DNA from: an uncultured Candidatus Saccharibacteria bacterium
GTDB taxonomy: Bacteria; Patescibacteriota; Minisyncoccia; Phycocordibacterales; UBA2100
NCBI GenBank assembly: GCA_964594735.1
Contig: CAZQMS010000002.1
Location: 50,023-114,022, forward strand
Length of the DNA stretch: 64,000 nt
Reading direction: 5' to 3'
The translations under genes and the position numbers were made by a program. Every line of letters starts with the position of its first letter. Position 1 is the first letter of the stretch. Of this stretch, positions 17,019-42,514 are shown piece by piece. The notes beneath the pieces are model-generated. The model saw only the letters and a list, made by a program, of their open reading frames with translations. It did not search any database and had not been told where the DNA came from.

Positions 17019-17361
17019 GTATCCCACAGTCGATAGCCACAAAGCGGCGCCCGAAAGGGCGCCGCTTGTCATTTGTGCGTTGCACGCGCGAAATGTCGCT
17101 TTACATCGTTGCTCGGGAGTCCGAGTCGGCGCGGAGGTGCGGGTAGGTACGAGGCGAGAGGTTGTAGTGACGAGAATTCTTAAAAAAAGCGGAGAATTTT
17201 TTGCGCGTTGAAGCGAACTCGGAAGAAAAAAATAAAAAATGTCCGATACGAAATTCGTGTAATGTTTTCCACACAAAATCGTGTCCAATATGCGTCCAAT
17301 ACACGAAAAGACTAGTAAACTGTTAGATAAATCGTGCATCCGGCCTGATGAACAAACGCTC

Positions 17362-20300: not shown

Positions 20301-23300
20301 TGCAAGCACATGGGTTTCGGTTGCAAATTCGAATGCCGGTGGAACGGCAGGGTATCAGATTGGTTATACGAGCGCGGGCGAGATGGCTTCCCTCTATAGT
20401 GATATGGCGACAAATGATTTGTACTTGAAAAACGTTGCTACGGGCGGAGATTTCCGCGTCCTCGTTGAAGACACTACAGAGGCACTGACAATCTTAAACA
20501 CCGGCAACGTCGGCATAGGGACGACGACGCCCGGGTCGCTGCTCAACCTGTATGGAACAGGAAGCGGTACGGAACTTCGAATCGACAATGGTGGTGCCGA
20601 CGGCGACCCGTTCGTAAGCTTTGCACTTTCTGGTACACAAACATGGATTGCGGGAATCGACGATAGCGATAGTGACACGTTCAAGATAAATGCCACTTCC
20701 GGCAACTTCAACACAACAGGCCTCGCCATCACCACTTCCGGCAACGTCGGCATCGGGACGGCGAGTCCGCAAGGTGGTCTTTCCGTTGCGAGCGCGCTCA
20801 CGAGCACATCTCCCAGCGTTGTGGGGTGGCATCTCGGGACAACAGGCGGAACGACAAATGGACTTGAATCGTACAATACCGCAGCTACATACCTCGACTT
20901 CAGCAGTGTTTCGGAGCGCGATTATGATTTCCGACAGATCTTCACCGCCTCCACGAACGATTTACAATTTATTTCTTCTTCTACAAATCCTATCCTAACG
21001 CTCAAAGGAACCGGCAACGTCGGCATCGGGACGGTGAGTCCTGCCACTGCACTGCACATGTTGGGTAACTTCAGGATTCGACCTACTGGCGCCAGTACCG
21101 ACCTCAATATTTTGTTGAATTCTTCCGACCTTAGCATAGAAGGGACCGGTAGCTTGCGGCTGTCGTCGTCAGGTTCATCGCTCAAATACACTGTTGGCGC
21201 CTCGGGTGTTGGCGAAGTAGACCACATCTTTTACGGTGGCGGTTCGACCGCGGTCGCGCGCATTGAATCAAACACGCAGGCCGAGTATGCGAGACTGTCA
21301 CTGCAATCTGGTACCGCAAACAATTTCAGCCAACCCTATTTCACTATCACGTCGAATGGAGGCTCGACTGGCAACATCTTTACACTCAATTCGGCTGGCA
21401 ACGTCGGAGTAGGGACGACGACGCCGTGGGCGAAGTTCTCGATTGCAAACAATACGGGCGACACGGCGGGCCAGGCGCTCTTCTCCATCTCTTCCTCCAC
21501 CGCATCCGCAACGACGACTCTCTTCCACGTAGCGAACAGCGGGAATGTGGGTATTGGGACGGCGAGTCCTAGTTACGGACTGGATGTAACGGGGACAGGA
21601 AGACTTACTTCAACATTTGCGTGGGGTACAAGCGGTGCCACATACATGTACACGATTGGAGGAACGCAGAGGTACGGTTATTCCACAGCGAACGCGAATG
21701 TTCTGTATTCAGGCGGGAGTGGTGGTCTAACGATTTGGAATCAAGCTGACAGCTCGGAACTTGTTCGCATTACCGATTCTGGCAACGTCGGCATCGGGAC
21801 GACGAGTCCGTATAAGCATTTATCGATAAGCAGTAGTGCCAACTCCGACACCTCAGTAGTCATCGCTAATACGCATGCCAGTTTTAGCGCCGCAGTTTCG
21901 TCGACATACCAAACCGCGACCAAACGTTTCGATGCAGGATTGCTCGGTAACAGTAATTCTGTTGCTCCGAACTCATACTATATATACGATTCCAATAACG
22001 ATGCATTCCGCTTCATTGTGGGCGCGACGGGTAACATTGGTGTCGGTACAACAAGTCCGACCAACAAGCTCTCAATCGAGTCCAACACTGCGACGATTGG
22101 AGGACTTGCGGAAAATCTCAGGGTTGCAGGGGATCAGTACGAAGTAGGCATCGGGCTCGCGAACTACGGCTCTGGCGGCAACACATGGTCGCTCATGGCA
22201 ACGCGGGGGAACTCGTCTTTCGGAGGTGCAAAATTCCTCATCGCTGATTCCGCAGCTAACCGTTTCGCAATCGACTCCTCCGGCAACGTCGGCATCGGGA
22301 CGACGTCGCCACTTACGAAACTTTCAGTTCAGGGCACTGCGGGTGACAACGACGTCTTCAACGTCGCGTCGTCGACGGGTGCGAGCATGTTCTATGTCGA
22401 TTCGAGCGGGAAGGTCGGCGTGGGCACGATGACGCCTGATTATGCCTTCACCGTAAGCGGCACCGCTGCGACGTATGCCAGCGTGCAAAATTCCGCCGAT
22501 GAAGAAGCCGGTATTTTCTTCAGCACTGCAGCAAACGGCGGCAACGGCTGGGCACTGTTTATGGACGGGTCCAACGTAAACGATTTGGGCGCGACGCACA
22601 GGCTCGGCTTCTATTCCACAGATCTCAGTGCGACCACGATGACGCTCGACGGTGTGACGGGGAATGTGGGAATCGGGACGACGACGCCGTACAGCAAGCT
22701 CACAGCATGGGGCGGCGCGAGCGGCAACATTTTTGAAGCGGTCACGTCGGCCTCGACCACGGCGCTTCGCATCGCGGCAGATGGATTTGCGACGACGACA
22801 CTTTCCGGTCTCAGCATCAGCGGCAGCGCGACATCCACGTCCAACGTCGGCTTCAACCTCACTGCCGGCTGCTTCTCTATAAATGGTACGTGCGTCGGTG
22901 GGGGCAGTGGTTCGGGTACGGTCGGTAGCGGCACTACGGGGTGGTTCCCGTACTATGCGGGAGATGGCACGACACTCACCGCCACCTCCTCGATCTTCCT
23001 CGCAACAAGCGGCAAGATCGGCATCGGGACGACGACGCCGCGCAGGGGGCTGTCTGTTGTATCTTCTTCAGCGGCAGACACCAATGCCGAGTTTACGAGT
23101 ACGGCAAATGACGGATTTGGGGGATTCAACATATACAATAACTTCGGCACGCTCGTTACATCACTAGTCCACTCCAATGCCGGGGCAAGCGTTAATGCCA
23201 GTTCGACCTGGTTTGGTACAAGAAATGATGAGTCGCTACATCTTGTCACCAATGGCGCAACTCCGCGCCTGACTATCGACTCTTCCGGCGACGTCGGCAT

Positions 23301-29676: not shown

Positions 29677-30933
29677 ATGCAAAGAGAAGAAACGGGACGA
29701 AGGGGAGGAAGGGGGCTGCTGGAATTCATCCAGTATCACAACGCCGTGCCGGTGGCACTCGGCATCATCGTCCTCGGTGGTGGCGGAGTCTTTGCAGCGA
29801 CGAATCCGGAAGCCATCTACTCGGCCACAGAAGAAGTCCTCACGGTGGACAACACATACCTCGTAGGGAAAGACCTCACCGGCTACAGCCCGCGCGCGGT
29901 CATCACGGCCGTCCTCGAAGACGAAGAGAACTACAACGTCGAGTACGAATTTCACACCATCGATGTCGAGGGGTACGTGTGGCGCGACGTCGTCAAGAAA
30001 GAGACGATGCAGGTCTCAAAGGTAGATCTCGGACAGTATCGTGACCTCGGTCTCTACGTGACGCAGCAGCTCCGACAAGTGATTGAGCGCGAGGCAGCAC
30101 GCCTCACGAAAACGCAGGAGAACGCGCGCAGCGCGGTGACGCAACTCACGGTCGCCACCACGTACGGCGGACTCATCGGCAAGTTCCTCGACGAGAGCAC
30201 GGAGGTTCTGCCTGGGTACACGCCGGTGGTCGCACCCGCGCAAACCGCCGCTGTTGCAGCCGTATTTGGTCCCGCAGAGGGAGGAGAAGGAGGTACCAAT
30301 CACGAAGGAGGCAGTACGAGCGCGAGCGGGCTCAAGATCGGCCTCCAGCTCCTCGGCAACAATCCCGCACGCATCCCCGTGGGAACGCAGTACGCTGACC
30401 TCGGCGCAGTGCTCGTCGACCCGTACAACACCAACGTGGGCGTCTACCTGTCCATCAATGGTGAAGAGAAAGCTAACTGGACGGGCATCGACACCTCAAC
30501 GACGACGGCACACACAATCGAGTACCGTGCGACAGACCCGAGCGGTGCGGTGATAACCGTGCGTCGCATTGTGCTCGTGGGCGATGCCGCGAATCCTGGC
30601 GGCGAAGTGAGCGAGGCGGGGAATGTGAGGCCGGTGGTACAAACGAACAACAACCAAGACACAACGACCAACAACGAACAAACGACAGATGCCCAAGACG
30701 AGGTGAGTGGGACGCCGTCAAGTGAGACGGAAGCATCCACGTCGACACCGGCCGTAGCCGAGGAGGAGCAAGCAGAGGAAGCGACGGAGGGCGAGGCTGG
30801 AACGACGGAAAGCGAAGTGGGAAGTGCGGAGAATGTGGAAACTCCGACGGAGACGGCAACTACAACAGCAGGCACTTCATCAGATACACATAGCGATAAG
30901 GCGGAGCAAGCGACCACCACACCTGAAAATTGA
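29677..30933 (+). CDS. Membrane-anchored protein with a DUF5011 (Cry22Aa-like Ig) domain and an acidic Thr/Glu-rich C-terminal tail
   Basis: N-terminal TM VPVALGIIVLGGGGVFAA. LLGNNPARIPVGTQYADLGAVLVDP...HTIEYRATDPSGAVITVRRIVLV matches DUF5011. Low-complexity T/E/A tail. Confidence 0.75.
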   Translation: MQREETGRRGGRGLLEFIQYHNAVPVALGIIVLGGGGVFAATNPEAIYSATEEVLTVDNTYLVGKDLTGYSPRAVITAVLEDEENYNVEYEFHTIDVEGYVWRDVVKKETMQVSKVDLGQYRDLGLYVTQQLRQVIEREAARLTKTQENARSAVTQLTVATTYGGLIGKFLDESTEVLPGYTPVVAPAQTAAVAAVFGPAEGGEGGTNHEGGSTSASGLKIGLQLLGNNPARIPVGTQYADLGAVLVDPYNTNVGVYLSINGEEKANWTGIDTSTTTAHTIEYRATDPSGAVITVRRIVLVGDAANPGGEVSEAGNVRPVVQTNNNQDTTTNNEQTTDAQDEVSGTPSSETEASTSTPAVAEEEQAEEATEGEAGTTESEVGSAENVETPTETATTTAGTSSDTHSDKAEQATTTPEN

Positions 30934-33900
30934 CCATGAACGAGTCCTTTATCAGCGCAATTGCACACTTCATCCGCGACGCCGGCGAGATAATCGCTGT
31001 GCGCCTGCTGGAGTGGGTGCGCGGGGTAATGGACACAGCACTTGGCCATGCTAAAGCCGATCTGCAGCAGCATGCACAGAAGGCGGTGAGTGTGGTAAAG
31101 CATGCCGCATCGCAAGCGACTACAGGCGAGCGTATTCCTCTCGCTCTGCCGGAACCAGCGCCGATGCTGCGTCTCTCTGCCGCATCCACGAATGCGCTGG
31201 GCGGGTACATGGCGGCAGTGCTCGGCTTTGCGCTCGTCTTCAACTATGCGCCGGCGGTCTACGAAAAGAGCGCTGCATACGCAGCGTGGGCGGCGCAAGA
31301 AGCACGTTCGCAGACGGCGCTTGTGTCGATGTTTAGTTTGGGGCCAATCTCACAAAAGCCGGCGATAGATCTACAGCAGCTTTTCCGCGCTCCGACGAGT
31401 ACGCCGAGCATGAAGTTGCCCAGGCCTGCACTCGCGCCGAGCAGTACAGGAGCGTCGGTGCAGGCACCGAGCGCAACGACTCCGAGCACTCGCGAGTCGG
31501 TGCAACCGCCCGTCTTCCGCCAGGCCGCGCAGTCGATACAGAATGTGTACAACACCTATCCGGTCGTCGAGCGTATCCGGGAAGAGGTGCGTTACGTGAA
31601 TGTGGGAGCGACGGGCGATATCTCCGACCAGCTCAATGAACTCTACGAGCGCATTCAGCGGCAGATAGGATCACTCAGCACGAACACGAGCGCACAATTC
31701 ACGCAGACGTACCAGGTGGTCTCGCAGAGCCAACGAATCGATCAGCTCGGGAGCGTCGACATCTCCGACTCTGATATCACGGGCGGGACAATAACAGGGA
31801 GCACATTGAGCGACGTATCTTTCGCATCGGGATTCTCTCTCGGTGTGGCGAGTGGCGGCACGGGGACGACCACTGCACCGAGCTATGGGCAGCTGCTCCT
31901 CGGCAACAGTGCGGGCGGCTACGATCTGGTAGCAACGTCGAGTCTCGGTATCACGGGTGGCGGAGGCGCGTCGCTCACCGGCACCACGGGGCAGCTCGCA
32001 TATTTCTCAGGTACCGATACGGCCGTCGGCACCTCGACGCTGTTTATAGCGACGACCGGCGGCATAGGCATAGGCACAACCACGCCAGCTGGTGCACTGC
32101 AGATAACTCATGATCCCAACGATGATAGCGCGCTCGTGCTCGACCAGCTCAACGATTCTACCGCGCTCAACTCCAAGTCGGCTCTCTACATCACCAACAC
32201 CGATCCTACTGAGAGCAACTGGGGCATCATAGGCTTTGGTATCGACCCTCTCGGTTCGCCCGCTGCGAAGATTGGCGTGCAGTTCACCGACCGCGCACAA
32301 AATTTCGGCGACATTGTTTTCGGTACGCGAAATGCCTCCGGCATGAACGAGTGGGTGCGACTCACGAGCGAAGGCAATTTTGGCATCGGGACGAGCAATC
32401 CTGGAGCGAAGCTTGAGGTGGCAGGCGGCGCATCGACGACACGGCTTTCGGTGTTCGATGTAGCCTATTTCGGGGGCAGTGCTACATCTAGCTTCGACTC
32501 GACCGGCTCGCTCTCACTCGCCGCGCCACTCGCCACATCGAGCGGCGGCACCGGCATTAGCTCGTACAGCGTCGGCGACATCCTCTATGTCAACAGCGTC
32601 GGCACACTCGCGAGGCTCGCCGCAGGAAGCGCAGGACAAGTGCTCAAGATATCCGCAGGCGTCCCATCGTGGGGAGCAGACGCGACGGGCGGCGGTGGTG
32701 CAGGTGCATTTGCCACATCATCGGATAATCTCCTCATCTCTCCGACCGACACCGACAATGTGCTCGTCCTCGGCGCAAGCGCGACGAGTACCACCGGAAA
32801 TATTTTCGAGGTCAACGGCGCGTCACTCTTCCGCAGCATCGTGACCGCATACGGCGCAGTCACCGCGCCATACTTTTCTGCGACGAGTTCTACGGCGTCC
32901 ACCTTCACTGGGGGCCTCCTCTCGCTCGCATCTACCACCATCGGCGGCGGCTCGGCGACAACTGGCCTCACTATCTCGGGCGGCGCTACGACGACGGGGA
33001 ATGCATATTTTGGAGGAAATGTAGGTATCGGAGTAAGTCCCGCCTATACACTCGACGTGGCCGGTCGGGGCCGATTTGTCGGCGCCAATGGTGCGGTGGG
33101 CGCTATCGGCGGGGAGGATTATGTACTTTCTCTCCAGAACAACGGCAACAGCAGCTGGCTCGAGATACTCAATCAGGGCGGCGCGGGACAAGGTGTGTTC
33201 TTCGGCGTCTCGGACAACCGCACGGCCAACGCTTTCGAGCTATGGAACTACCAGGCGGGCCCGATAGATTTCTTCACGAGTACTGATGCTTCCGACGGCT
33301 CAAATAGGTTGCGCATTGCCGCCGACGGCAAAGTCGGCATTGGGACGACCTCGCCGTGGGGGAAGCTCTCTGTCGCCGCTGCCGACAACGCGTCTGCCCC
33401 GCAATTCGTGGTTGCATCATCGACATCTGCAAGTTTCGTCGTGACAAGCAGCGGCAACGTGGGGCTTGGTACGGCGAATCCTGACGCACTTTTGACGCTT
33501 GCGGGTGGCTCGATTCATATGGTCTTGGGCGCAAGAAATACATATATCGGCGATGCCGACTTGCTCCCCATCACACCTACGGGCGGTCCTGATGTTGCGG
33601 ATTTCTATATTACTGGCGGGACGAACAATGACTTTTTCATCGCATCGCAAGCGAACGGCACTGGAGAGGGACTGCGCTTCGGCAATGCTTCCGACGCGGG
33701 GGCGACCTTTACTGAATACATGACCATCCTGGGAGCTGGCACGGGAGCAGGCAGAGTCGGCATCGGGACGACGTCGCCAGGCTCGATACTCTCCGTGCAA
33801 GGCGTGGGCAACTTCGTTGCAAGCGCGACGAGCACGTTCTACAACGGACTCTCGCTCGTCGGTTCGCTCAATGTCGGCGGCTCGGCCACAAGCACCTTCG

Positions 33901-36900
33901 CGCAAGGTATCAACCTGTCAGGTGGATGCTTCTCAATAAATGGTACGTGCGTCGGAGGGAGTTCCGTTTCATCGCTCAACAATCTTTCTGATGCTGCTTC
34001 CGATAGCGACACGCTCTATCTCGGTACCAATGTCGGGGGTGACCCCAGCTTTTCTGGCGACGTGGTAGTTGGACCGGGGGCATTGAGCGCTTCTAGCGAA
34101 TCAAGCGGAAACGCTATTTTGGGATACCAGGCGGCGTCTGCAGGCAGTGCAATCCATCAGTTGTCCGTGCTCGGCTACGATGCATTTAGAAATATTAATA
34201 GCACAACGGGCGGCGTGGCGATCGGTCTGAATGCTGGGTACGGCGAGTCCGGGCTCTACAGCGCAAGCGGCTTGGTACTAGTGGGCTACCAAGCGGGGTA
34301 CAAGTTGCAGACTGGCGCCAACGAGAATACGCTCATCGGCCAAAATTCGGGGTACGAGCTTACGACAGGCTTGGGCAACGTTCTCATCGGTTCGTCCAAT
34401 TCGGTAGCATCGCGCGAGCAGGTAACCACTGGCAATCGCAATATCGCTATCGGTTATCGGGTAGCGTTGCCAAGCCAAACCGCAAACTACCAGCTCAACA
34501 TCGGCAATCTCATATATGGCACGGGGCTCGATGGTACGGACTACACCGTCTCCACTGGCAACGTCGGCATCGGGACGACGACGCCGTACAGCAAGCTCAC
34601 CGTGTGGGGCGGCAGCACCGGAAATATATTTGAGGCGGTCACGAGTGCGTCGACGACCGCGCTTCGCATCGCGGCAGATGGATTCGCGACGACGACACTG
34701 AGCGGCCTCAACATCTCCGGCAGCGCGACGTCCACGTCCAATGTAGGCTTCAATCTCTCCGGCGGATGCTTCGCAATCAATGGCACGTGTGTCGGGGGAG
34801 GCAGTGGCGGCGTCGCGCTAGGCGATGAAAATACCTGGACGGCGCTCCAGACATTCCAGCTCGGACTATTGTCGCAAGCGTCTTCGACCATCGGTGGCGG
34901 TACTGCTACAACAGGTCTCACCATTTCAGGTACCGGTACAACTACCGGCGCTCACTACGTGGGCGGCGGGCTCACCGTCAATAGCTCTACTGGCAGTTCG
35001 TTCTTGGGAACAGGGGACGTGTATCTCGGAAGTGGGACGCTCGTACAAGGTTTGGGTGGCGCACCCGACCTTTCTGTCGAGGGTTATATCAACACGAATG
35101 CCGGGATTAACACTGGTGGCGATGTGCGAATCGGTGGTAGTAGCGCGTCGATCTGGACTGCGCTCGGCGGTTCCGCTGACTTGGGAGTACAAGGTTGGAT
35201 AAATGCGAATACAGGACTTCAAACTGCGCAGGGTAGCGCTTCTACCCCTGGCCTGGTGTTTTACTCCACAAACAACACCGGCATATTCGCGACAGATGCA
35301 AATGCGAGCGCCGGCCTCGGATTTTCGACACAGGGTAGTGAAAGATTGCGGATAAGCAACACGGGCAACGTCGGCATCGGGACGACGACCCCGTGGGCGA
35401 AGTTCTCGATTGCCAACTCGACGGGCGACACCGCGGGTCAGGCGCTTTTCACCATCTCCTCCTCGACCGCGAGCGCGACCACAACGCTCTTCCATGTGGC
35501 CAACAGTGGCAAAGTCGGTGTGGGAACGCAGAGCCCGACCGCACTGTTTACAGTGGAGGGGGGAAATATCGGCATTGATGGTAATGCGTCTGCACAGCAA
35601 TTTTTTGGCGCAGGAGGCAATGTTGCTGGTACGAACACCACTGGCGGCGTTATGACTGTATTCGGCCATGCACCGAATACGTATCAGGACGTGTCGACGC
35701 CGCCGCATGATGGGTCGAACTTCGTAGGTGCTGCTGGATTCATTGCACGCGGATTCAGCGAGTCAGCTCAGTATCGCGGGAGTTTGGAGTTTTTCACAAA
35801 GACGGCAAGCGCAGCAAATGCCACGAGCAGGATGGTCATCACCCACGACGGCAACGTCGGCATCGGGGATACGAGCCCGGCGGCTCTCCTGACAGTGGGT
35901 GCGAACGACCTATTCCAAGTTGATTCATCCGGCAATGTGAGCATCCCCCAAGGCCAGTACCTGCGCTTCGCCGGTGCAACTGCAGACCAAGAGCAAATAG
36001 GATCTACTGCCACAGGACAGCTTGATCTCTTCGCGCGCGGAGCCATCAACGTGATTGCCGACACCAACAACAACGATACTGATGCAGATACCAACGCCTT
36101 TACAGTACGTACGAACGCCACGACGGTCGCCGGAGCCACGAGCCTCTTTTCGGTACGGCAAAGCGGCAACGTCGGTGTGGGGGCAACAGAGCCCAGTCAC
36201 AAACTTACCGTCGCCGGCGGATCCAACGGCGCAGCTTCGACGCTGAAAATCCAAAACACATCCGGTGCCGCCGACTCAACCGCCACCCTATTTCTCAACA
36301 CGAGCTCAAGCGCAAGCGACACCACAGTCGGTGCGCAGATCCAATCTATCCGAACGAATACAGGCGGAGGTGGTAGCAACGAGCTTGCCTTCAGCACAAG
36401 CCTCACGACGACCATGACCGAGCACATGCGCATTCTCGCTTCTGGCAATGTCGGCATCGGTACGACGTCGCCACTTACAAAGCTTTCGATCCAGGGTACT
36501 GCGGGCGCCAACGACGTGTTCAATATCGCATCGTCGACCGGTGCGAGCCTGTTATACGTCAATGCGAGCGGCAATGTTGGAGTTGGGACGGCTTCGCCGG
36601 GCGGGAAGCTCCATGTATACAGCGGTGCTGCCGGCGTATCTGCGAACAGTTCGCTCGATGACTTCGTTATTGAGGGCAGTGGCGACACCGGCATGTCAAT
36701 TCTGACGCCCAACAGCAACACTGCGTACTATGGATTCGGCGACCCAGACGATAGCTTTGTGGCGGGGGTGCGGTATCTTCACGCTTCGGACCGGTTGGAC
36801 CTAATCTCAGGCAACTCGACGGGAGTTTCAGTTCTGGGCACAGGTCACGTCGGCATTGGCAATACTGACGCGGTTTCGCTTCTGACCATCACTGCAGATT

Positions 36901-38264
36901 CTGCCGATTCGACAGATGTCGATAAGAACCAACTAACGCTTCGCTCGCGCCGCCAGTCCATATCTAGCTCGGCCACTGCCGCGCTCATCGGCGGTATCAA
37001 CTTTGACACCGACGACACGAGCCTCACGTCGCCAGGAACCACGACCGCGTCGATACGCGTCATTGCGACGAATACACACACGACATCCCAGTACGCCGCC
37101 GCAATGGAGTTCTTTACGTCGACAGGCGTTACACGGACGCGCAACTTCCGCATTGGACCGACGGGCAACATAAGTCTCAACTCATTTGCGTCTGCTACCG
37201 GCAACACCGTCTGCTACGACACGACGTCAGTGTCCGGCATGAACACGTTCGCCACCTGCTCCTCGGATGAGCGGCTCAAGCACGATATCGCGACGCTCCA
37301 GAGTGGCGGGCTTGAGAGGATACTTTCGCTACGTCCGGTGAATTTCGTGGGCAATGACGACGCCTCGGGCAAAATGCGCGCAGGCTTTATCGCGCAGGAA
37401 GTGCTCGGCATAATCCCGGAAGCGATAGGTCAAAACCCCGCCGACGGGTACTACACGCTCGACACCGGCTCGATACTCTCGCACTCGGTGAAGGCGATTC
37501 AGGAACTCAATCTGAAAGTTGAGAGCATCGCATCGACAACATTGGAACTCGCGCCGGAGTCTCTGGGCGCGCGCGTGTTCGCGTCGCTCAAGACGCGTCT
37601 CATCACGTGGTTTGCCGATGCAGCGAGTGGAATCGGCGACTTCTTCGCGAATCGCGTGCGCACCAAAGAGCTCTGCGTGGGTGACGGTAGTGGAGAGACG
37701 TGCATCACGAGAGCGCAGCTCGATGCACTGATAGCGGGCGTTGCGCAGGCTTCATCGAGCGGTGGGGGCGGGGGAGGTGGTCAGAATGAGTCGCCCACCG
37801 AAGATGCACACGATGACCCAGTCGATACAGAAGCTCCAGTGATTACGATTCACGGCAACAATCCGGCGGTGCTCCAAATCGGAGAAGCGTACAGCGACCT
37901 GGGCGCGAGCGTGAGCGACCCTTCGACAGGCTCAGGGCAGGCAAACGAGAACCTGGGAATCAAGGTGAGTGTCAATGGTGGTGAGGAGATTGGACTCGGC
38001 TTGATAGTCATCGACACCTCTCTGCCCGGTGAACACACCATCGAATACCGTGCCACCGACCAAGCGGGCAATGTCGGCACCGCGACGCGTACGGTCTTGG
38101 TAGTCGACCCGAATCCTTCGTCAGACGAATCAGCATCTGTAGAGCCCAATATTGAGCCTCTCGAAGAGGTACCCACGGACGACGATACGGATGTAGAAGA
38201 GGTGGCCAGTACGACCTCATTAGATACACAAAGCGATCAAACGGGGCAAGCGCCATCCAATTGA
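30930..38264 (+). CDS. Giant fibre protein B (2444 aa): N-terminal TM anchor, paralogous stalk and GNVGIGTTTP repeat region, Peptidase S74 intramolecular-chaperone autoprocessing domain, DUF5011 Ig-like domain, acidic tail
   Basis: CSSDERLKHDIATL...LRPVNFVGNDDASGKMRAGFIAQEVLGIIPEAI...YYTLDTGSILSHSVKAIQEL (S74/CIMCD signature). Then PVITIHGNNPAVLQIGEAYSDLGASVSDP...HTIEYRATDQAGNVGTATRTVLV (DUF5011). ATGA overlap with the upstream gene. Confidence 0.85.
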   Translation: MTMNESFISAIAHFIRDAGEIIAVRLLEWVRGVMDTALGHAKADLQQHAQKAVSVVKHAASQATTGERIPLALPEPAPMLRLSAASTNALGGYMAAVLGFALVFNYAPAVYEKSAAYAAWAAQEARSQTALVSMFSLGPISQKPAIDLQQLFRAPTSTPSMKLPRPALAPSSTGASVQAPSATTPSTRESVQPPVFRQAAQSIQNVYNTYPVVERIREEVRYVNVGATGDISDQLNELYERIQRQIGSLSTNTSAQFTQTYQVVSQSQRIDQLGSVDISDSDITGGTITGSTLSDVSFASGFSLGVASGGTGTTTAPSYGQLLLGNSAGGYDLVATSSLGITGGGGASLTGTTGQLAYFSGTDTAVGTSTLFIATTGGIGIGTTTPAGALQITHDPNDDSALVLDQLNDSTALNSKSALYITNTDPTESNWGIIGFGIDPLGSPAAKIGVQFTDRAQNFGDIVFGTRNASGMNEWVRLTSEGNFGIGTSNPGAKLEVAGGASTTRLSVFDVAYFGGSATSSFDSTGSLSLAAPLATSSGGTGISSYSVGDILYVNSVGTLARLAAGSAGQVLKISAGVPSWGADATGGGGAGAFATSSDNLLISPTDTDNVLVLGASATSTTGNIFEVNGASLFRSIVTAYGAVTAPYFSATSSTASTFTGGLLSLASTTIGGGSATTGLTISGGATTTGNAYFGGNVGIGVSPAYTLDVAGRGRFVGANGAVGAIGGEDYVLSLQNNGNSSWLEILNQGGAGQGVFFGVSDNRTANAFELWNYQAGPIDFFTSTDASDGSNRLRIAADGKVGIGTTSPWGKLSVAAADNASAPQFVVASSTSASFVVTSSGNVGLGTANPDALLTLAGGSIHMVLGARNTYIGDADLLPITPTGGPDVADFYITGGTNNDFFIASQANGTGEGLRFGNASDAGATFTEYMTILGAGTGAGRVGIGTTSPGSILSVQGVGNFVASATSTFYNGLSLVGSLNVGGSATSTFAQGINLSGGCFSINGTCVGGSSVSSLNNLSDAASDSDTLYLGTNVGGDPSFSGDVVVGPGALSASSESSGNAILGYQAASAGSAIHQLSVLGYDAFRNINSTTGGVAIGLNAGYGESGLYSASGLVLVGYQAGYKLQTGANENTLIGQNSGYELTTGLGNVLIGSSNSVASREQVTTGNRNIAIGYRVALPSQTANYQLNIGNLIYGTGLDGTDYTVSTGNVGIGTTTPYSKLTVWGGSTGNIFEAVTSASTTALRIAADGFATTTLSGLNISGSATSTSNVGFNLSGGCFAINGTCVGGGSGGVALGDENTWTALQTFQLGLLSQASSTIGGGTATTGLTISGTGTTTGAHYVGGGLTVNSSTGSSFLGTGDVYLGSGTLVQGLGGAPDLSVEGYINTNAGINTGGDVRIGGSSASIWTALGGSADLGVQGWINANTGLQTAQGSASTPGLVFYSTNNTGIFATDANASAGLGFSTQGSERLRISNTGNVGIGTTTPWAKFSIANSTGDTAGQALFTISSSTASATTTLFHVANSGKVGVGTQSPTALFTVEGGNIGIDGNASAQQFFGAGGNVAGTNTTGGVMTVFGHAPNTYQDVSTPPHDGSNFVGAAGFIARGFSESAQYRGSLEFFTKTASAANATSRMVITHDGNVGIGDTSPAALLTVGANDLFQVDSSGNVSIPQGQYLRFAGATADQEQIGSTATGQLDLFARGAINVIADTNNNDTDADTNAFTVRTNATTVAGATSLFSVRQSGNVGVGATEPSHKLTVAGGSNGAASTLKIQNTSGAADSTATLFLNTSSSASDTTVGAQIQSIRTNTGGGGSNELAFSTSLTTTMTEHMRILASGNVGIGTTSPLTKLSIQGTAGANDVFNIASSTGASLLYVNASGNVGVGTASPGGKLHVYSGAAGVSANSSLDDFVIEGSGDTGMSILTPNSNTAYYGFGDPDDSFVAGVRYLHASDRLDLISGNSTGVSVLGTGHVGIGNTDAVSLLTITADSADSTDVDKNQLTLRSRRQSISSSATAALIGGINFDTDDTSLTSPGTTTASIRVIATNTHTTSQYAAAMEFFTSTGVTRTRNFRIGPTGNISLNSFASATGNTVCYDTTSVSGMNTFATCSSDERLKHDIATLQSGGLERILSLRPVNFVGNDDASGKMRAGFIAQEVLGIIPEAIGQNPADGYYTLDTGSILSHSVKAIQELNLKVESIASTTLELAPESLGARVFASLKTRLITWFADAASGIGDFFANRVRTKELCVGDGSGETCITRAQLDALIAGVAQASSSGGGGGGGQNESPTEDAHDDPVDTEAPVITIHGNNPAVLQIGEAYSDLGASVSDPSTGSGQANENLGIKVSVNGGEEIGLGLIVIDTSLPGEHTIEYRATDQAGNVGTATRTVLVVDPNPSSDESASVEPNIEPLEEVPTDDDTDVEEVASTTSLDTQSDQTGQAPSN
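37850..38100 (+). repeat. ~250-bp near-identical segment shared with 42110-42365 (DUF5011-coding region of giant proteins B and C)
   Basis: Direct comparison shows long identical runs, e.g. agcgtgagcgacccttcgacaggctcag...gcaaacgagaacctgggaatcaaggtgagtgtcaatggtggtgaggag... and ...atagtcatcgacacctctct...gaacacaccatcgaataccgtgccaccgaccaagcgggcaatgtcggcaccgcgacgcgtacggtc. Confidence 0.8.
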
Positions 38265-38293: not shown

Positions 38294-41200
38294 ATGGCTG
38301 ATCACATCCAATTCGACGGAAGAACGTATGCGCAACTTGCGGATGCTGCCTCTATTGTCGGCACTGACGAGGCACACGTGCGATTGCTCGGCACTCAGGG
38401 CAAAGTTTTCCTGCGCGCAGTGGGGAAAAAAATATACGTAGACGTGGAAGGCCTACGCAAGGCACTCGCTGCTCCGCCTGCTGCACGCCTCGTACAGCAG
38501 GAGCCACCTGCGGTTGCTGCGAATGCTGCACAGACGAAGGAGGCGCCGCCCATGGCTGCAGCACCGAGCTCATTGCATCAATCTGCGGCGCTGCCACATG
38601 CAATCACGATGCTGTCGCAGGTCGCGTCGGCAAAAGTGGCACAAGCGCAGCAGCGAGCGACCTCATCGATAATGAGGAAGACCACGTCGCAAAGCAAGGT
38701 GATGCAGACGCAACCGAGGGTGTACATATCGCCGGCCACGGAGAAACGCATCCAGCTGCCTACGAACGAGGCCAAACCCACGTCATCACGAGCGACCGCT
38801 TCCGCGCCTCACGCGATTCCCGCGAAGACGTCGGCGGAGCTTTCCGCGGCCGGTGCGCTGTCGGCTATCATCTTGCCCCCGACTCAGCACCTTTCTGCGG
38901 CAGGCCGCTCCGTCTTGACGACGGGCGCGGCACTCGCGGCGTTCGTATTTGTCGTCGGTCTCGGTGTTGCGGCATCAAGCCATGCACCGGCCGCGCTCAC
39001 CTGGGCAGACAAGATTCACAACCAGGTTGCTTCCGCTGTTCGTGCTGGCAGTGTCTCGTATTCACCGACGATGGGTACTGTCGAGAGCGCCACACCACAG
39101 AATTCTCCCAGCGAGCTGCAAGCGAGCGCAACCGCTACGACGCTCCTATCGTCTGCGACGACGTCCCAGCCCATCTACTACGTCTACAATTACCCAGTCA
39201 TCGAGCGGGTAACAGAGGAGGTGCGCTACATCAATGCGAGTACTCCAGCAGAATTCAATGCTGCGCTGGATGACCTGTACAATCGCATCCAACAGCAGAT
39301 TCAGAGCCTGAGCATCACAACCAACACGAGCTTCGCACAGCAGTACCAAGTCATCTCGCAGTCGAGCAATATCGACCAGCTCGGGAGCATTACCATCGAG
39401 GATTCGACAATTACCGGTGGCACAATTAGCGGTGCGACTATTTCGGGAGGTTCTGTGACAGCGACCGCATACTCCGGCACTCTCGGCATCGCAAACGGCG
39501 GCACTGGTACCACCACCGCTCCGTCGGCCAATCAAGTGTTTCTCGCCGCTGCCGATGGCACGTGGTCATATGTCGCGACGTCATCGCTCGGCATCTCGGG
39601 CGGCGCCGACACAAGTGTCTCCAACACCTGGACCGCGCTCCAGCTTTTCTCCGGAAACGCCTCCTCGACCAACTTCTCCACTTTCGGCACCGCGTATTTC
39701 GGCGGAAATTCCACAACTACAATCGATTCGACCGGCGCGATCACCGTCACATCCTCGAGCGCCAACACCTTCCCGTATGCATCCACGACGGCGCTCACCG
39801 TCTCGGGGACAGCGTATTTCGGCAATATCTTTAGCGGTACGGGGCACACGATTACTGGTACGTACGCATTCGGTTCCGGTGCGACGCATAGCATCTCTGG
39901 CAGCTACGCGTTCGCCGGCGGCGGCCAGCAGAATACATTGTCGGCAGAAGCCACAGCAGCGGTAGGCGGATACGGCAACACGGCGAGCCAATCGTATGCA
40001 TTCGTAGGAGGCGGTCAGGCGAATACCGCAAGCAATGTGTACGCCGCGATTATCGGCGGCGTGTCGCATGTGGCGAGCGGAGCAAAGTCATTCATCGGGG
40101 GCGGAGAACAGAACACGGTTTCCGGAGAGAATGCCGCGAGTGCCGGTGGTTATGGCAACACAGCGAGCGCGTTCGGTACATTTGCGGGAGGCGGTCAGAA
40201 TAATCAAGCACAAGATGTCTACGACGCTGTCGTGGGTGGTACCGGAAACGTGGCAAATGGCGGCAATGCGTTTATCGGCGGCGGTACCGACAACGACGCA
40301 ACGGGCGACAAGTCGGGAACCGTCGGGGGTTATGGCAACACGGCCGCGGGAGAAAGCAGCTTCGTCGGCGGTGGTCAAGCAAATCAAGCGCTCGACGTGT
40401 ATGACGTCGTCCTGGGTGGGGCCGGACATACGGTCAACGGCGGCTACTCATTCGCGCTTGGCGGGCAGGGCAACACCGTGACGGGTGACTACAGCGGCGC
40501 TTTCGGTCGCGCGCTTACCGTGAGCGGCACCGGCTCCTTCGGCTTTGGTCTAGACGGCGGTTCCCACACGATCTCCGCCAACAACACATTTGCAATCCTG
40601 GGCGGCAACGTCGGCATCGGGACGACGACGCCCAGTGCCAAGCTTGTCGTACAAAACGATTCCTCAAACAACGTGCTGCTCGTGAAGGGCAGTGGTGGGT
40701 CAACCGTCTACTTTAACAATCTATCAGGCTCTGATTTGGCGACTATCGGGTACGCCAATAATCATCTATCTTTGATTAACTCCAACCCCTCAGGTTCGTT
40801 GCTTGTATACACTGGCGGCAGTGAGCGCTTGCGTATCACCGAGACCGGCAACGTCGGCATCGGGACGACGACGCCGTGGGGCAAGCTCTCCATCACTGCG
40901 ACTGACAACGCCTCTGCCCCACAATTTGTCGTTGCGTCATCTTCCGCTACGAGTCTGGTTGTCACTGCAAGCGGCAATGTGGGTATCGGGACGACACAAC
41001 CGGAACAGTTGCTACGCGTTGGCGTAACCAGTTCGGCTTTTGATCATGATGGAACCGTGGCAATAGGGAGCGATGCGTCAGGTATAGCGCTCCACCTTGA
41101 GGAAAATACCGGGGCTGAGGGATGGAAAGTTGGAATCAATGCGGCAGGCGATATGCTCTTCGATGATTCAACTGCAGGTAACACAATGGTTATTTTTCAG

Positions 41201-42514
41201 GACGGAACAGGCAACGTCGGCATTGGGACAACGACGCCCGCCTCTAAGTTGAACATTCATTATGGCTCCGTCTCCTCCAGCGATACTACACCGCTTGAAA
41301 TTTTGCGCCTCGGATGGGACGGCTCCAGTGCAGACGAGCAAGCGGGGGTCGGTGTCAAAATCGCCTTTCATGGATCCAATGCCAACAATCTTCCATCCAC
41401 TGCGGAGGTCGCTAATATAGGGACGACGAGAGTGAGCGGCGTGGAGGGTAGTACGCTTACCTCGCTTCTTTTTTCTACGAACGACGGTACTACGCTTGCG
41501 GAAAGACTGCGAATCACCGGAGCCGGCGATCTCATCGTGGCGGCGACCAATTCATCGGGTGGCAACACGTCGCTCTGCTGGGACGGCTCCGGTTCATCCA
41601 CATGGGGCGGTTGTACCTCGCTCGCAAAGTACAAGGACAATGTGACCAACTTGTCGCTTGGACTCGACGCTGTGTTGCAGCTCCGCCCGGTAGAGTTCGA
41701 CTGGAATGAACACAGTGCGGCCATCGGACACGACCTCGGCTTTATTGCCGAAGAAGTAGAGGCTATCAGCCCGCTACTCGCGGAGCATAGCGGTCAGGGT
41801 GGTGCGCTGTCTGGCGTAAAGTACAACACGATGTCGGCCTTGCTCGTGAGGGCTGTGCAAGACATCGCAAATCTAGCGGATGCGTTCAAAGTTAAGCTCA
41901 TTGCGTGGTTCGGGAATGCCGGGAACGGGATTGCGGATTTCTTTGCAGACAACGTTCGAGCCCGTAATCAACTCTGCGTCGGCTCGACGTGCGTCAACGA
42001 GGCGCAGCTCGCCGCGCTGCTCGCCAATTCGGCGAGTGGTGCAGGTGGAAACGGTTCTCCCGCCGCGCCCGGCGCCGAAATTACCCCGGTGAATGATACG
42101 GAACCACCAACAATCACCATCCTCGGCAACAACCCGGCGACGGTGCAGGTGGGTGATGCGTATAGCGACCTCGGCGCAAGCGTGAGCGACCCTTCGACAG
42201 GCTCAGCGCAGGCAAACGAGAACCTGGGAATCAAGGTGAGTGTCAATGGTGGTGAGGAGGTTGAACTCGGTTTGATAGTCATCGACACCTCTCTACCGGG
42301 CGAACACACCATCGAATACCGTGCCACCGACCAAGCGGGCAATGTCGGCACCGCGACGCGTACGGTCATTGTCGAGGGGATTGCAAGCGACGGGGATCAG
42401 GAGGCAGAGGAGGATTCACTGCCTCAGAATGTGTCCACCGAGGAAGTCGACGACACGGGTGACGGGTCCGCGCCTGATGAAGAGCACGGTGATGCTCCGC
42501 CCTCAGAGGGCTAG
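38294..42514 (+). CDS. Giant fibre protein C (1406 aa): excisionase-like HTH N-terminal domain, TM helix, repeat-rich fibre, Peptidase S74 chaperone domain, DUF5011 Ig-like domain, acidic tail
   Basis: N-terminus MADHIQFDGRTYAQLADAASIVGTDEAHVRLLGTQGKVFLRAVGKKIYV. TM helix LTTGAALAAFVFVVGLGVAA. S74-like CTSLAKYKDNVTNLSLGLDAVLQLRPVEFDW...LGFIAEEVEAISPLL. C-terminal DUF5011 nearly identical to that of protein B. Confidence 0.85.
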   Translation: MADHIQFDGRTYAQLADAASIVGTDEAHVRLLGTQGKVFLRAVGKKIYVDVEGLRKALAAPPAARLVQQEPPAVAANAAQTKEAPPMAAAPSSLHQSAALPHAITMLSQVASAKVAQAQQRATSSIMRKTTSQSKVMQTQPRVYISPATEKRIQLPTNEAKPTSSRATASAPHAIPAKTSAELSAAGALSAIILPPTQHLSAAGRSVLTTGAALAAFVFVVGLGVAASSHAPAALTWADKIHNQVASAVRAGSVSYSPTMGTVESATPQNSPSELQASATATTLLSSATTSQPIYYVYNYPVIERVTEEVRYINASTPAEFNAALDDLYNRIQQQIQSLSITTNTSFAQQYQVISQSSNIDQLGSITIEDSTITGGTISGATISGGSVTATAYSGTLGIANGGTGTTTAPSANQVFLAAADGTWSYVATSSLGISGGADTSVSNTWTALQLFSGNASSTNFSTFGTAYFGGNSTTTIDSTGAITVTSSSANTFPYASTTALTVSGTAYFGNIFSGTGHTITGTYAFGSGATHSISGSYAFAGGGQQNTLSAEATAAVGGYGNTASQSYAFVGGGQANTASNVYAAIIGGVSHVASGAKSFIGGGEQNTVSGENAASAGGYGNTASAFGTFAGGGQNNQAQDVYDAVVGGTGNVANGGNAFIGGGTDNDATGDKSGTVGGYGNTAAGESSFVGGGQANQALDVYDVVLGGAGHTVNGGYSFALGGQGNTVTGDYSGAFGRALTVSGTGSFGFGLDGGSHTISANNTFAILGGNVGIGTTTPSAKLVVQNDSSNNVLLVKGSGGSTVYFNNLSGSDLATIGYANNHLSLINSNPSGSLLVYTGGSERLRITETGNVGIGTTTPWGKLSITATDNASAPQFVVASSSATSLVVTASGNVGIGTTQPEQLLRVGVTSSAFDHDGTVAIGSDASGIALHLEENTGAEGWKVGINAAGDMLFDDSTAGNTMVIFQDGTGNVGIGTTTPASKLNIHYGSVSSSDTTPLEILRLGWDGSSADEQAGVGVKIAFHGSNANNLPSTAEVANIGTTRVSGVEGSTLTSLLFSTNDGTTLAERLRITGAGDLIVAATNSSGGNTSLCWDGSGSSTWGGCTSLAKYKDNVTNLSLGLDAVLQLRPVEFDWNEHSAAIGHDLGFIAEEVEAISPLLAEHSGQGGALSGVKYNTMSALLVRAVQDIANLADAFKVKLIAWFGNAGNGIADFFADNVRARNQLCVGSTCVNEAQLAALLANSASGAGGNGSPAAPGAEITPVNDTEPPTITILGNNPATVQVGDAYSDLGASVSDPSTGSAQANENLGIKVSVNGGEEVELGLIVIDTSLPGEHTIEYRATDQAGNVGTATRTVIVEGIASDGDQEAEEDSLPQNVSTEEVDDTGDGSAPDEEHGDAPPSEG

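What the first reader, a model, noticed from the sequence alone, without database searches (positions are those of the whole stretch)
37250..37540. Phage tail-fibre-type intramolecular chaperone (Peptidase S74) domains near the C-termini of giant proteins B and C
Protein B contains CSSDERLKHDIATLQSGGLERILSLRPVNFVGNDDASGKMRAGFIAQEVLGIIPEAIG...YYTLDTGSILSHSVKAIQELNLKV. Protein C (nt ~41610-41900) contains TSLAKYKDNVTNLSLGLDAVLQLRPVEFDWNEHSAAIGHDLGFIAEEVEAISPLLAEHSG...KYNTMSALLVRAVQDIANL. Both keep the Ser...Lys(+5) catalytic dyad spacing and the L..L.PV.Y.W/F, G.IAQEV and VDY..L..L.V.A.Q.L hallmarks of the C-terminal intramolecular chaperone domain. That domain occurs in phage K1F endosialidase and T5 L-shaped tail fibre, and autocleaves after trimerisation. 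Cleavage here would release the downstream DUF5011 plus acidic tail. So a phage-fibre maturation mechanism appears co-opted by chromosomal giant proteins.
Basis: partly seen in the sequence, partly recalled or inferred. Interest (0 to 1): 0.7.

Follow-up and report, generated by a model that had tools for sequence, protein, structure and literature searches.

The report
Self-cleaving phage-like surface fibres
Two giant chromosomal proteins of an ultrasmall (Patescibacteria/CPR) bacterium are membrane-anchored, phage-tail-fibre-like surface fibres. Each carries a genuine self-cleaving "intramolecular chaperone" domain, a design already known from Bdellovibrio, but here followed by a conserved, undescribed CPR-only module.

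Summary
Protein B (30930-38264, 2444 aa) and protein C (38294-42514, 1406 aa) each match Pfam Peptidase_S74 above its threshold. Both keep the Ser-x4-Lys dyad. A family profile hits solved chaperone domains of phage tail fibres and MYRF.

The window is chromosomal (SecA, GatB, GAPDH, ribosomal proteins) and belongs to a Kaiserbacteria-like Patescibacterium. The fibre locus between GatB and GAPDH recurs in related CPR genomes.

The shafts of A, B and C are homologous to Bdellovibrio MAT fibres and to phage tail-fibre families. So cellular use of the S74 domain has a proven precedent (Bd3182 self-cleaves; also MYRF). The idea itself is not new.

Three things differ here:
- The fibres appear anchored by an N-terminal membrane segment. 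A and C also carry an excisionase-like HTH domain on the cytoplasmic side.
- The S74 domain is not terminal.
- It is followed by a roughly 50-70-residue two-cysteine module ("MOD"). MOD has no Pfam, NCBIfam, PHROG or PDB match. It occurs in 854 protein clusters, only in Patescibacteria among named genomes, and in no phage record.

In relatives, MOD follows either S74 or a Peptidase_G2-like chaperone. Predicted cleavage (S2111|S2112 in B, T1108|S1109 in C) would shed 34- and 30-kDa acidic fragments. Cleavage is inferred, not shown.

The parts
30930..38264 (+). Protein B, 2444 aa. Giant fibre with an N-terminal hydrophobic segment, a conserved coiled-coil segment, a shaft with 7 exact GN[VI]G[IV]G capping-loop motifs (9 by a looser pattern), the S74 domain, MOD, an Ig-like domain and an acidic tail.
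   Evidence: ORF. Pfam. Repeat counts. Shaft homologous to Bdellovibrio Bd2133 (8ond, E 1.5e-7). Identical protein P0074 on an NCBI contig of 126,369 bp.
31200..31262 (+). B aa 91-111 (GGYMAAVLGFALVFNYAPAVY): putative membrane anchor, weakly hydrophobic.
   Evidence: It aligns with the clear hydrophobic segments of A and C. It falls below the Kyte-Doolittle 1.6 cut-off.
37263..37535 (+). B aa 2112-2202: S74 intramolecular chaperone domain. Ser2112 and Lys2117 form the dyad. Predicted scissile bond S2111|S2112.
   Evidence: PF13884 E 2.4e-10. Profile hits to 8jov, 6f45, 7dc3 and 3gud with the Ser aligned. AF2 pLDDT above 90, and the best Foldseek hit is the MyRF ICA domain 7dc3.
37536..37754 (+). 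B aa 2203-2275: MOD, a conserved post-chaperone module. An aromatic helix (..WFADAASGIGDFFANRV) is followed by a Cys2249/Cys2258 beta-hairpin (KELCVGDGSGETCIT) and a helix (RAQLDALIAGV).
   Evidence: It is the most conserved stretch of the family alignment. It has no Pfam, NCBIfam, PHROG or PDB match. It occurs in 854 clusters.
37824..38114 (+). B aa 2299-2395: Ig-like domain (PF16403, formerly DUF5011).
   Evidence: PF16403 E 6.6e-10. pLDDT above 90 with Ig-like fold hits. 88% nucleotide identity to the copy in C.
38115..38261 (+). B aa 2396-2444: acidic tail with 14 D+E and 0 K+R.
38294..42514 (+). Protein C, 1406 aa. Same plan as B, with an N-terminal excisionase-like HTH (aa 5-58), a hydrophobic segment at aa 207-229 and 4 GNVGIG motifs.
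41618..41875 (+). C aa 1109-1194: S74 domain of the S-L-x-x-x-K subtype. Ser1109 and Lys1114 form the dyad. Predicted scissile bond T1108|S1109.
   Evidence: PF13884 E 5e-9. The same subtype occurs in L025, L047, L012 and L033.
41876..42040 (+). C aa 1195-1249: MOD (..WFGNAGNGIADFFADNVRARNQLCVGSTCVNEAQLAALL), with Cys1228 and Cys1233.
   Evidence: Local HMM score 70 bits. Cysteine positions.
42095..42379 (+). C aa 1268-1362: Ig-like domain PF16403. It is followed by a 44-aa acidic tail (42380-42511).
17281..24477 (+). Protein A, 2398 aa. A paralogous fibre without S74: HTH_17-like N-terminus, hydrophobic segment at aa 222-239, 16 GNVGIG motifs and a different C-terminal tip.
   Evidence: Pfam HTH_17 only. 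Shaft hits Bd2133 at 9.2e-10 and 8ojn at 1.8e-8. phrog_9942 at 1.8e-48, and the tip hits phrog_9017 at 1.7e-7.

Best explanation
B and C, together with the S74-less paralogue A, are cell-surface trimeric fibres of a Kaiserbacteria-like Patescibacterium. They are homologous along their shafts to phage tail fibres and to the Bdellovibrio MAT adhesive fibres.

Each chain is held in the cell membrane by a hydrophobic segment near its N-terminus, and the rest is exported. At the far C-terminal end, three chains are brought into register by the S74 intramolecular chaperone domain, probably helped by the adjacent MOD helix and disulphide-hairpin module. This nucleates folding of the trimeric beta-helical shaft back towards the membrane.

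Once the trimer is correct, the Ser-Lys dyad cuts the chain just before Ser2112 in B and Ser1109 in C. That sheds an acidic C-terminal fragment made of chaperone, MOD, Ig-like domain and acidic tail (34.4 kDa in B, 30.5 kDa in C). It also exposes the mature fibre tip, which most likely serves attachment to a host cell or surface.

What is shown: homology, the conserved dyad, the domain order, the chromosomal conserved locus, and the CPR restriction of MOD. What is inferred: topology, trimerisation, cleavage, the role of MOD, and the adhesive function.
For: S74 identity:
- Pfam matches above threshold.
- PHROG tail-fibre families match.
- 351 phage records match by tblastn at 30-38% identity over the S74 part.
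- The family profile hits solved chaperone domains with the Ser aligned to the N-terminal Ser of the cleaved GA-1 domain.
- The AF2 model has pLDDT above 90 in this region, and its best fold match is the MyRF ICA domain.

Dyad: S-x4-K is kept in 41 of 41 complete relatives. Ser and Lys are at least 90% conserved in alignment A1. Both residues are indispensable in MYRF and endoNF (PMC8326128).

Shaft: B hits Bd2133 at E 1.5e-7. A hits Bd2133 at 9.2e-10 and 8ojn at 1.8e-8. The GNVGIGTTTP loops align with the MAT capping loops.

Precedent for the mechanism in a cellular fibre: Bd3182 self-cleaves at S782 and the S782A mutant does not.

Anchor: hydrophobic segments in A and C align with a weaker one in B, and a shared coiled-coil segment follows. 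Paired cysteines fit an extracellular location.

Chromosomal, vertically kept locus: housekeeping genes flank it. GAPDH-RpiB-Rpe-Tkt lies downstream of the fibre gene in 10 other CPR loci, and GatB lies upstream in 7.

MOD belongs to the removable part: among 163 MOD proteins with enough upstream sequence, 121 have S74 and 34 have a Peptidase_G2-like chaperone directly upstream.
Against: - No experiment shows trimerisation or cleavage.
- Protein C lacks the Asp and Arg of the common SDxRxK motif (it reads SLAKYK). In MYRF the R590A mutant cleaves only partially.
- In endoNF an upstream Arg of the beta-helix takes part in catalysis. That was not assessed here.
- MOD is more conserved than the chaperone domain itself, which is odd for a purely disposable pro-piece.
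- B's putative anchor is only weakly hydrophobic.
- The structure models are monomers. The MOD-only model is weak, with pLDDT 64.
- An adhesive role is by analogy only.
Confidence: 0.65

Rival explanations
1. The S74 domain acts here only as a permanent trimerisation knot and does not cleave. MOD and the Ig-like domain stay attached and form the functional distal tip of the fibre.
For: MOD and the Ig-like domain are conserved and placed distally. C has a non-canonical SLAKYK motif. The Ig-like domain resembles adhesin and S-layer Ig domains.
Against: The S-x4-K dyad is kept in 41 of 41 relatives, including the SL-type subfamily. MOD also follows a second, unrelated self-cleaving chaperone type, the G2-like domain. 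That is hard to explain if the junction were meant to be permanent. Many relatives have MOD but no Ig-like domain (100 of 181).
Confidence: 0.2
2. Cleavage occurs, but the point is the released fragment. The trimeric chaperone-MOD-Ig-acidic-tail piece would be a secreted or loosely retained product with its own role, such as a cap removed on contact or a host-directed factor.
For: MOD is strongly conserved and restricted to CPR. The Ig-like domains of B and C are kept 88% identical at DNA level while their S74 domains belong to different subtypes. Transient chaperone caps are reported for Alteromonas phage fibres (title of PMC10579305).
Against: There is no evidence of any activity. The Ig-like domain is optional in the family. 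Released chaperone domains have no known later role in phages.
Confidence: 0.12
3. The genes are remnants of a prophage or of a phage-tail-like particle, that is, real tail-fibre genes rather than cellular proteins.
For: The shafts and S74 domains hit phage tail-fibre families strongly. A Y1 transposase sits in the syntenic locus L001.
Against: No capsid, tail-tube, baseplate, terminase or integrase families appear among the Pfam matches to the 34 larger ORFs scanned (of about 53). The neighbours are SecA, GatB, signal peptidase and GAPDH. The same locus position is conserved across Kaiser-, Adler-, Vogel- and Nomurabacteria. The proteins have N-terminal membrane segments rather than tail-attachment domains. 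MOD is absent from 50,697 phage records and from IMG/VR.
Confidence: 0.03

Closest known systems
Bdellovibrio bacteriovorus MAT (mosaic adhesive trimer) fibres, S74 subgroup such as Bd3182 (PMC10769870)
   Same: They are chromosomal cellular fibres with a trimeric beta-helical shaft and VG.G/N-T..P...L capping loops. Sequence homology here is 8ond at E 1.5e-7 and 9.2e-10, and 8ojn at 1.8e-8. S74 and non-S74 paralogues exist side by side. The paralogues are mosaic. The organism lives on other bacteria.
   Different: [quoted passage not shown] The proteins here have a hydrophobic segment 90-230 aa from the N-terminus, preceded in A and C by an HTH-like domain. They continue 210-240 aa beyond the S74 domain with MOD, an Ig-like domain and an acidic tail. 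They are also two to three times longer.
Phage C-terminal intramolecular chaperone domains: K1F endosialidase (3GW6), T5 pb1 (4UW8), S16 gp37 (6f45), GA-1 gp12 (3gud)
   Same: Same Pfam family, the same Ser-x4-Lys dyad, and the same position after a trimeric fibre.
   Different: In most of the PHROG families matched, the domain ends at the C-terminal end of the profile, for example 322-429 of 449 and 1458-1558 of 1567. No phage record covers MOD. The carriers here are cellular, membrane-anchored proteins.
MYRF (myelin regulatory factor) ICA domain (7dc3)
   Same: It is a cellular protein with an internal S74/ICA domain followed by further polypeptide. It is the best fold match to the model, and the profile hits it at E 7.2e-11.
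   Different: In MYRF the membrane segment lies after the ICA domain, and cleavage frees an N-terminal DNA-binding trimer. Here the membrane segment and the HTH-like domain lie at the N-terminus, so cleavage would not free them.
Peptidase_G2 intramolecular chaperone (phi29 gp12 type), and chaperone domain D4 of tailspike Dpo31 (28nb)
   Same: In S74-less relatives of B and C, MOD is preceded by a domain that hits PF11962. Five of 11 members match, the best at E 7e-6 and 26 bits against a gathering score of 25. It also hits 28nb at E 0.018. This is another self-cleaving fibre chaperone in the same position.
   Different: It is not present in the window itself, and the assignment is weak.

Membership tests
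Peptidase S74 / C-terminal intramolecular chaperone domain (PF13884) | Significant match to the family model | tested here: met
   B scores 41 bits and C scores 36.8 bits against a gathering score of 22. Tail-fibre PHROG families match.
Peptidase S74 / C-terminal intramolecular chaperone domain (PF13884) | Catalytic Ser and Lys five residues apart | tested here: met
   B has S2112/K2117 (SDERLK) and C has S1109/K1114 (SLAKYK). The dyad is conserved in 41 of 41 relatives. The Ser aligns to the first residue of the cleaved GA-1 domain.
Peptidase S74 / C-terminal intramolecular chaperone domain (PF13884) | Fold of the chaperone domain: beta 'donut' plus C-terminal helix | tested here: met
   The AF2 monomer model has pLDDT above 90 over the domain. 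The top Foldseek PDB hits are the three chains of the MyRF ICA domain 7dc3 (E 2.6e-5, TM 0.54 normalised to the target). This rests on a prediction only.
Peptidase S74 / C-terminal intramolecular chaperone domain (PF13884) | Sits directly after a trimeric beta-helical fibre or spike | tested here: met
   The shafts are homologous to the crystallised trimeric Bd2133 and 8ojn fibres and to tail-fibre PHROGs. This holds by homology; the trimeric state was not tested.
Peptidase S74 / C-terminal intramolecular chaperone domain (PF13884) | Domain forms the extreme C-terminus, as is typical of phage proteins and MAT fibres | tested here: not met
   242 aa in B and 212 aa in C follow the domain. This feature is not strictly defining, because MYRF also has an internal domain.
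Peptidase S74 / C-terminal intramolecular chaperone domain (PF13884) | Trimer-dependent, Ser-dependent autocleavage | not testable with these tools
   It needs expression of wild type and Ser/Lys mutants.
Bdellovibrio-type MAT fibres | Shaft repeats with capping loops homologous to Bd2133/Bd3182 | tested here: met
   8ond at E 1.5e-7 for B and 9.2e-10 for A. 8ojn at 1.8e-8 for A.
Bdellovibrio-type MAT fibres | Signal peptide followed by the conserved beta-rich N-terminal domain of about 130 aa | tested here: not met
   Hydrophobic segments lie at aa 222-239 (A), 91-111 (B) and 207-229 (C). An HTH-like or other N-terminal region precedes them and a coiled-coil segment follows. No direct comparison with a MAT N-terminal domain sequence was made.
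Bdellovibrio-type MAT fibres | Family of S74 and non-S74 paralogues with mosaic exchange | tested here: met
   A lacks S74 while B and C have it. Shared DNA tracts of 150-278 nt at 79-88% identity link A, B and C.
MYRF-type membrane-bound transcription factor | Cleavage at the ICA domain releases the N-terminal DNA-binding part from a membrane segment located after the ICA domain | tested here: not met
   The only hydrophobic segment lies N-terminal to the fibre and the S74 domain. Cleavage would not free the HTH-like domain.

The most novel reading that the evidence does not exclude
MOD would define a new, Patescibacteria-specific 'post-chaperone' module coupled to self-cleaving fibre chaperones of two unrelated types, S74 and G2-like. 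On this reading, autoproteolysis is not mere maturation but a switch. The non-covalently held, or released, trimeric chaperone-MOD-Ig cap would control when the fibre tip of an episymbiont becomes adhesive, or would itself act on the host. Together with the cytoplasmic HTH-like N-terminus, the fibre could even couple surface events to the cell interior.
Probability: 0.12. Interest if true: 0.75.

Novelty: new variant of a known kind. Interest (0 to 1): 0.5.

Why it matters
How ultrasmall Patescibacteria recognise and hold on to host cells is largely unknown beyond type IV pili and unnamed adhesins. This locus is a conserved chromosomal cassette of phage-fibre-like proteins. It has a predictable, testable maturation step and precise cleavage sites.

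It also extends the Bdellovibrio MAT concept to a second, unrelated group of bacteria that live on other bacteria.

The finding flags a widespread, unannotated domain (MOD, 854 clusters) that deserves a family entry and a structure. None of the papers retrieved by the one search pairing Patescibacteria/Saccharibacteria with S74, endosialidase or tail-fiber-domain terms (15 of 266 listed) linked the two topics. The two Patescibacteria papers opened do not mention fibres. Only automatic names exist, such as 'tail fiber domain-containing protein' and 'DUF5011 domain-containing protein'.

Tried and rejected
- Single-sequence phmmer of the C-terminal fragments against PDB found nothing relevant. 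Only the family profile did.
- NCBIfam gave only sub-threshold OmpL47-barrel and excisionase hits.
- A viral-contig scan with the MOD pattern found no relatives.
- MOD alone hit no PHROG family.
- The MOD-only AF2 model was too weak (pLDDT 64) to justify a fold search, so none was run. No fold assignment for MOD is claimed.
- An exact look-up of protein B's contig failed. The cluster look-up only showed an unnamed NCBI contig of 126 kb, so the organism is placed by similarity only. GAPDH is 77-79% identical to L047 (Kaiserbacteria) and L023.
- The prophage explanation was rejected on gene content and synteny.
- A MYRF-like release of the HTH domain was rejected on topology.
- One script call returned no answer and was repeated.
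Full report
**Observation.** The window holds four ORFs longer than 1000 aa on the + strand. Three of them, A, B and C, are the fibre-type giants discussed here. The fourth (24966-29102) is noted in passing.

Protein B (30930-38264, 2444 aa) contains CSSDERLKHD at aa 2110 (nt 37257). Protein C (38294-42514, 1406 aa) contains TSLAKYKDN at aa 1108 (nt 41615).

Pfam gives Peptidase_S74 (PF13884) for B at E 2.4e-10, 41 bits, and for C at E 5e-9, 36.8 bits. The gathering score is 22. Bact_surface_Ig-like (PF16403, the former DUF5011) lies downstream in both.

**Is it a real chaperone domain?** Single sequences found nothing in PDB. A profile of 24 family members (A1) did find solved relatives:
- a tail fibre, 8jov, at E 1.5e-15;
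- phage S16 gp37, 6f45, at 2.3e-12;
- the MYRF ICA domain, 7dc3, at 7.2e-11;
- the cleaved GA-1 neck-appendage chaperone, 3gud, at 1.5e-3.

The first residue of 3gud, the Ser of SDERHK, aligns with Ser2112 of B. An AlphaFold2 model of B aa 2095-2400 has pLDDT above 90 over the domain, and its best PDB fold matches are the three chains of the MyRF ICA domain.

PHROGs assigns the same stretch to 22 families for B and 9 for C, most of them tail-fibre families. In most of them the match runs to the C-terminal end of the phage profile. tblastn finds 351 phage records at 30-38% identity, all restricted to the S74 part.

The Ser-x4-Lys dyad is present in all 41 complete S74 domains collected from relatives. 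This includes the S-L-x-x-x-K subtype to which C belongs. In MYRF and endoNF these two residues are indispensable, and MYRF is cleaved N-terminal to the Ser at P586|S587 (PMC8326128). The predicted scissile bonds are therefore S2111|S2112 in B and T1108|S1109 in C.

**Context.** The window is chromosomal. It carries SecA, GatB, GAPDH, RpiB, Rpe, split transketolase, GlpX, aldolase, a release factor, S2, L25, PheS/PheT and tRNA-Thr.

Homologues of the C-terminal part come, where named, from Patescibacteria: Kaiser-, Berkel-, Pace- and Parcubacteria. Housekeeping genes are closest to a Kaiserbacteria MAG, with GAPDH at 77-79% identity.

From 17281 to 42514 the genes are tightly packed on one strand. 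In order they are fibre A, a 23S-rRNA-IVS protein, a 1378-aa LVIVD/LamG/SPRY/DUF7483 protein, signal peptidase I, a 418-aa Ig-like protein, B and C.

The same position recurs elsewhere. GAPDH-RpiB-Rpe-Tkt lies downstream of a fibre gene in 10 other CPR loci, and GatB lies upstream in 7. These span Kaiser-, Adler-, Vogel- and Nomurabacteria. The scanned ORFs matched no phage capsid, tail-tube or terminase family. This is a conserved cellular locus, not a prophage.

**What the carriers are.** The shaft of B hits a single PDB entry, Bdellovibrio Bd2133 (8ond, E 1.5e-7). The shaft of A hits 8ond (9.2e-10) and 8ojn (1.8e-8), both from the MAT-fibre study. The repeated GNVGIGTTTPxxKL motif aligns to the MAT capping loops. 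That motif occurs 16, 7 and 4 times in A, B and C. A also hits tail-fibre PHROGs at E about 1e-48.

Caulton et al. (PMC10769870) showed that B. bacteriovorus has 21 chromosomal mosaic adhesive trimer fibres. Thirteen of them end in S74 with SDxxxK, and Bd3182 self-cleaves at S782, which S782A blocks.

As in MAT fibres, S74 members (B, C) and a non-S74 member (A) coexist, and the paralogues are mosaic. The Ig-like regions of B and C are 88% identical over 278 nt although their S74 domains are of different subtypes. A and B share tracts of 150-254 nt at 79-82% identity.

**What differs.**

*N-terminus.* There is no N-terminal signal peptide. A and C have a clear hydrophobic segment at aa 222-239 and 207-229, and B has a weaker aligned one at 91-111. 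All three are followed by a shared coiled-coil segment. A and C begin with an excisionase/HTH_17-like domain. A separate upstream gene (16020-17018) has an HTH_17 match (E 3.5e-9), apparently in two copies, plus a C-terminal hydrophobic segment. tblastn shows similar N-termini on giant ORFs in six other loci.

*C-terminus.* The S74 domain is not terminal. It is followed by a module I call MOD, at B aa 2203-2275 and C aa 1195-1249. Its consensus is W[FL]ADAxNGIGDFFANRVRTKELCVxDxxGETCITKAQLDALL. The Trp, a Gly, an Ala and two Cys are invariant. MOD is the most conserved part of the whole C-terminal region.

It is predicted as helix, Cys-stapled beta-hairpin, helix, at moderate to low confidence. 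It has no Pfam, NCBIfam, PHROG or PDB match.

A phmmer search of 1.84 billion representatives finds MOD in 854 clusters, 185 of them at E 1e-10 or better. Among the 150 best hits listed, in proteins up to 6358 aa, it lies near the C-terminus, a median of 106 residues from the end. In 185,579 species genomes the pattern search confirmed 52 loci. Every taxonomically named one is Patescibacteria, and the rest are unclassified MAGs. IMG/VR and GenBank phages contain none.

**A clue to MOD's role.** Of 181 MOD proteins, 163 have enough upstream sequence to judge. In 121 of these S74 lies directly upstream, and in 34 a different conserved domain does. That second domain reads ...DYAE.YP...GIVST.PG...ALSGRVPVKVNLEGGPIAVGD...PGVGMKA.

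It reaches the Pfam threshold for Peptidase_G2, the 'IMC autoproteolytic cleavage domain', in one member (E 7e-6, 26 bits against 25). It matches in 5 of 11 members at E up to 1. Its profile's only PDB hit is a tailspike chaperone domain, 28nb, at E 0.018.

So MOD follows two unrelated self-cleaving fibre chaperones. This argues that it belongs to the part that is cut off. I propose it acts with the chaperone as a trimer-registering clamp, by analogy to a foldon-like hairpin. That last step is inference only.

**Mechanism proposed.** The chain is anchored N-terminally and exported. The C-terminal chaperone, with MOD, trimerises and nucleates shaft folding. The Ser-Lys dyad then cleaves, releasing a 333-aa fragment (34.4 kDa, pI 4.2) from B and a 298-aa fragment (30.5 kDa, pI 4.1) from C. 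The exposed tip then mediates attachment.

Extrapolating from the 142 Å per 370 residues of Bd2133, mature fibres could be roughly 30-80 nm long. This is a rough estimate.

Rivals are a non-cleaving knot with a retained Ig-like tip, a functional released cap, and a prophage remnant. They are weighed in the rival section. The invariant dyad and the S74/G2 alternation speak against the first. Gene content and synteny speak against the last.

**Novelty and score.** The S74 call is correct but already made by automatic annotation ('tail fiber domain-containing protein' in Patescibacteria MAGs). The concept is established for Bdellovibrio and MYRF.

New here are the link of CPR giant proteins to MAT-type fibres, the N-terminal anchoring with an HTH-like domain, the conserved GatB-GAPDH locus, and the undescribed CPR-specific MOD coupled to two chaperone types. 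One search of the paper library pairing Patescibacteria terms with S74 terms listed no paper that linked the two, among the 15 shown. I rate it a new variant of a known kind, with interest 0.5.

Noticed in passing
window 37536-37754 (B) and 41876-42040 (C): A conserved two-cysteine module ('MOD', WFADAxNGIGDFFANRVRTKELCV..GETCITKAQLDALL) lies directly after the S74 domain. It has no Pfam, NCBIfam, PHROG or PDB match. It occurs in 854 protein clusters, only in Patescibacteria among named genomes, and is absent from phage collections.
   Followed up: yes
L040 (ORF 3-5879), L042, L043, L011, L007, L023, L030, L051 and others: In relatives without S74, MOD is preceded by a domain resembling the Peptidase_G2 self-cleaving chaperone (PF11962, best E 7e-6; PDB 28nb, E 0.018). 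Two further pre-MOD domain types were seen: 'LYS.AGEL.VMDAAGNAT..SPH' in L046, P0099 and P0187, and 'TIDPAYTIG..YATY' in P0111 and P0018.
   Followed up: partly
window 17374-17532 (A), 38306-38467 (C), 16020-17018: Excisionase/HTH_17-like domains sit at the presumably cytoplasmic N-termini of giant fibres A and C. A separate 332-aa gene has an HTH_17 match, apparently in two copies, plus a C-terminal hydrophobic segment. Similar N-termini start giant ORFs in L003, L015, L018, L026, L043 and L048. A DNA-binding-type domain fused to a surface fibre is unexplained.
   Followed up: partly
window 14204-43576; L001, L006, L011, L023, L030, L031, L032, L047, L050, L051: The fibre genes occupy a conserved chromosomal slot between GatB (plus the HTH protein) and GAPDH-RpiB-Rpe-transketolase across several CPR lineages. 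The fibre content of the slot varies; L001 also has a Y1 transposase there.
   Followed up: partly
window 17281-24477: Protein A (2398 aa) is a non-S74 paralogue with 16 GNVGIG loops. Its C-terminal roughly 100 aa hit a phage tail-fibre family (phrog_9017, E 1.7e-7), which suggests a different tip domain.
   Followed up: partly
window 24484-30933: Four genes lie between the fibre genes. They are a 23S-rRNA-intervening-sequence protein (24484-24969), a 1378-aa membrane-anchored protein with DUF7483, six LVIVD repeats, two LamG-like stretches and SPRY (24966-29102), signal peptidase I (29099-29671), and a 418-aa anchored protein with the same Ig-like PF16403 domain and a 113-aa acidic Thr-rich tail (29677-30933). 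Start and stop codons overlap or nearly abut, which suggests one operon.
   Followed up: no
window 37824-38101 vs 42095-42372; 22657-22910 vs 34554-34807; 19354-19545 vs 35364-35555: DNA tracts of 79-88% identity are shared among A, B and C, while neighbouring segments are far more diverged. This indicates recombination or gene conversion among the paralogous fibre genes.
   Followed up: partly
A aa 486/493, 765/772, 1864/1871; B aa 1000/1007, 1280/1287, 2095/2110; C aa 1095/1107: All cysteines of the exported parts come in close pairs. Examples are GCFAINGTCVGG followed by a Gly-rich linker, and a pair just before the scissile Ser. They are probably disulphide-stapled hairpins at domain joints.
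   Followed up: no
window 1469-10386: Upstream envelope-glycan genes: a GT2 glycosyltransferase, a nucleotidyl transferase, a PMT_2-type mannosyltransferase, and a Wzy_C O-antigen-ligase-like protein fused to TPR repeats. They might modify the surface proteins.
   Followed up: no
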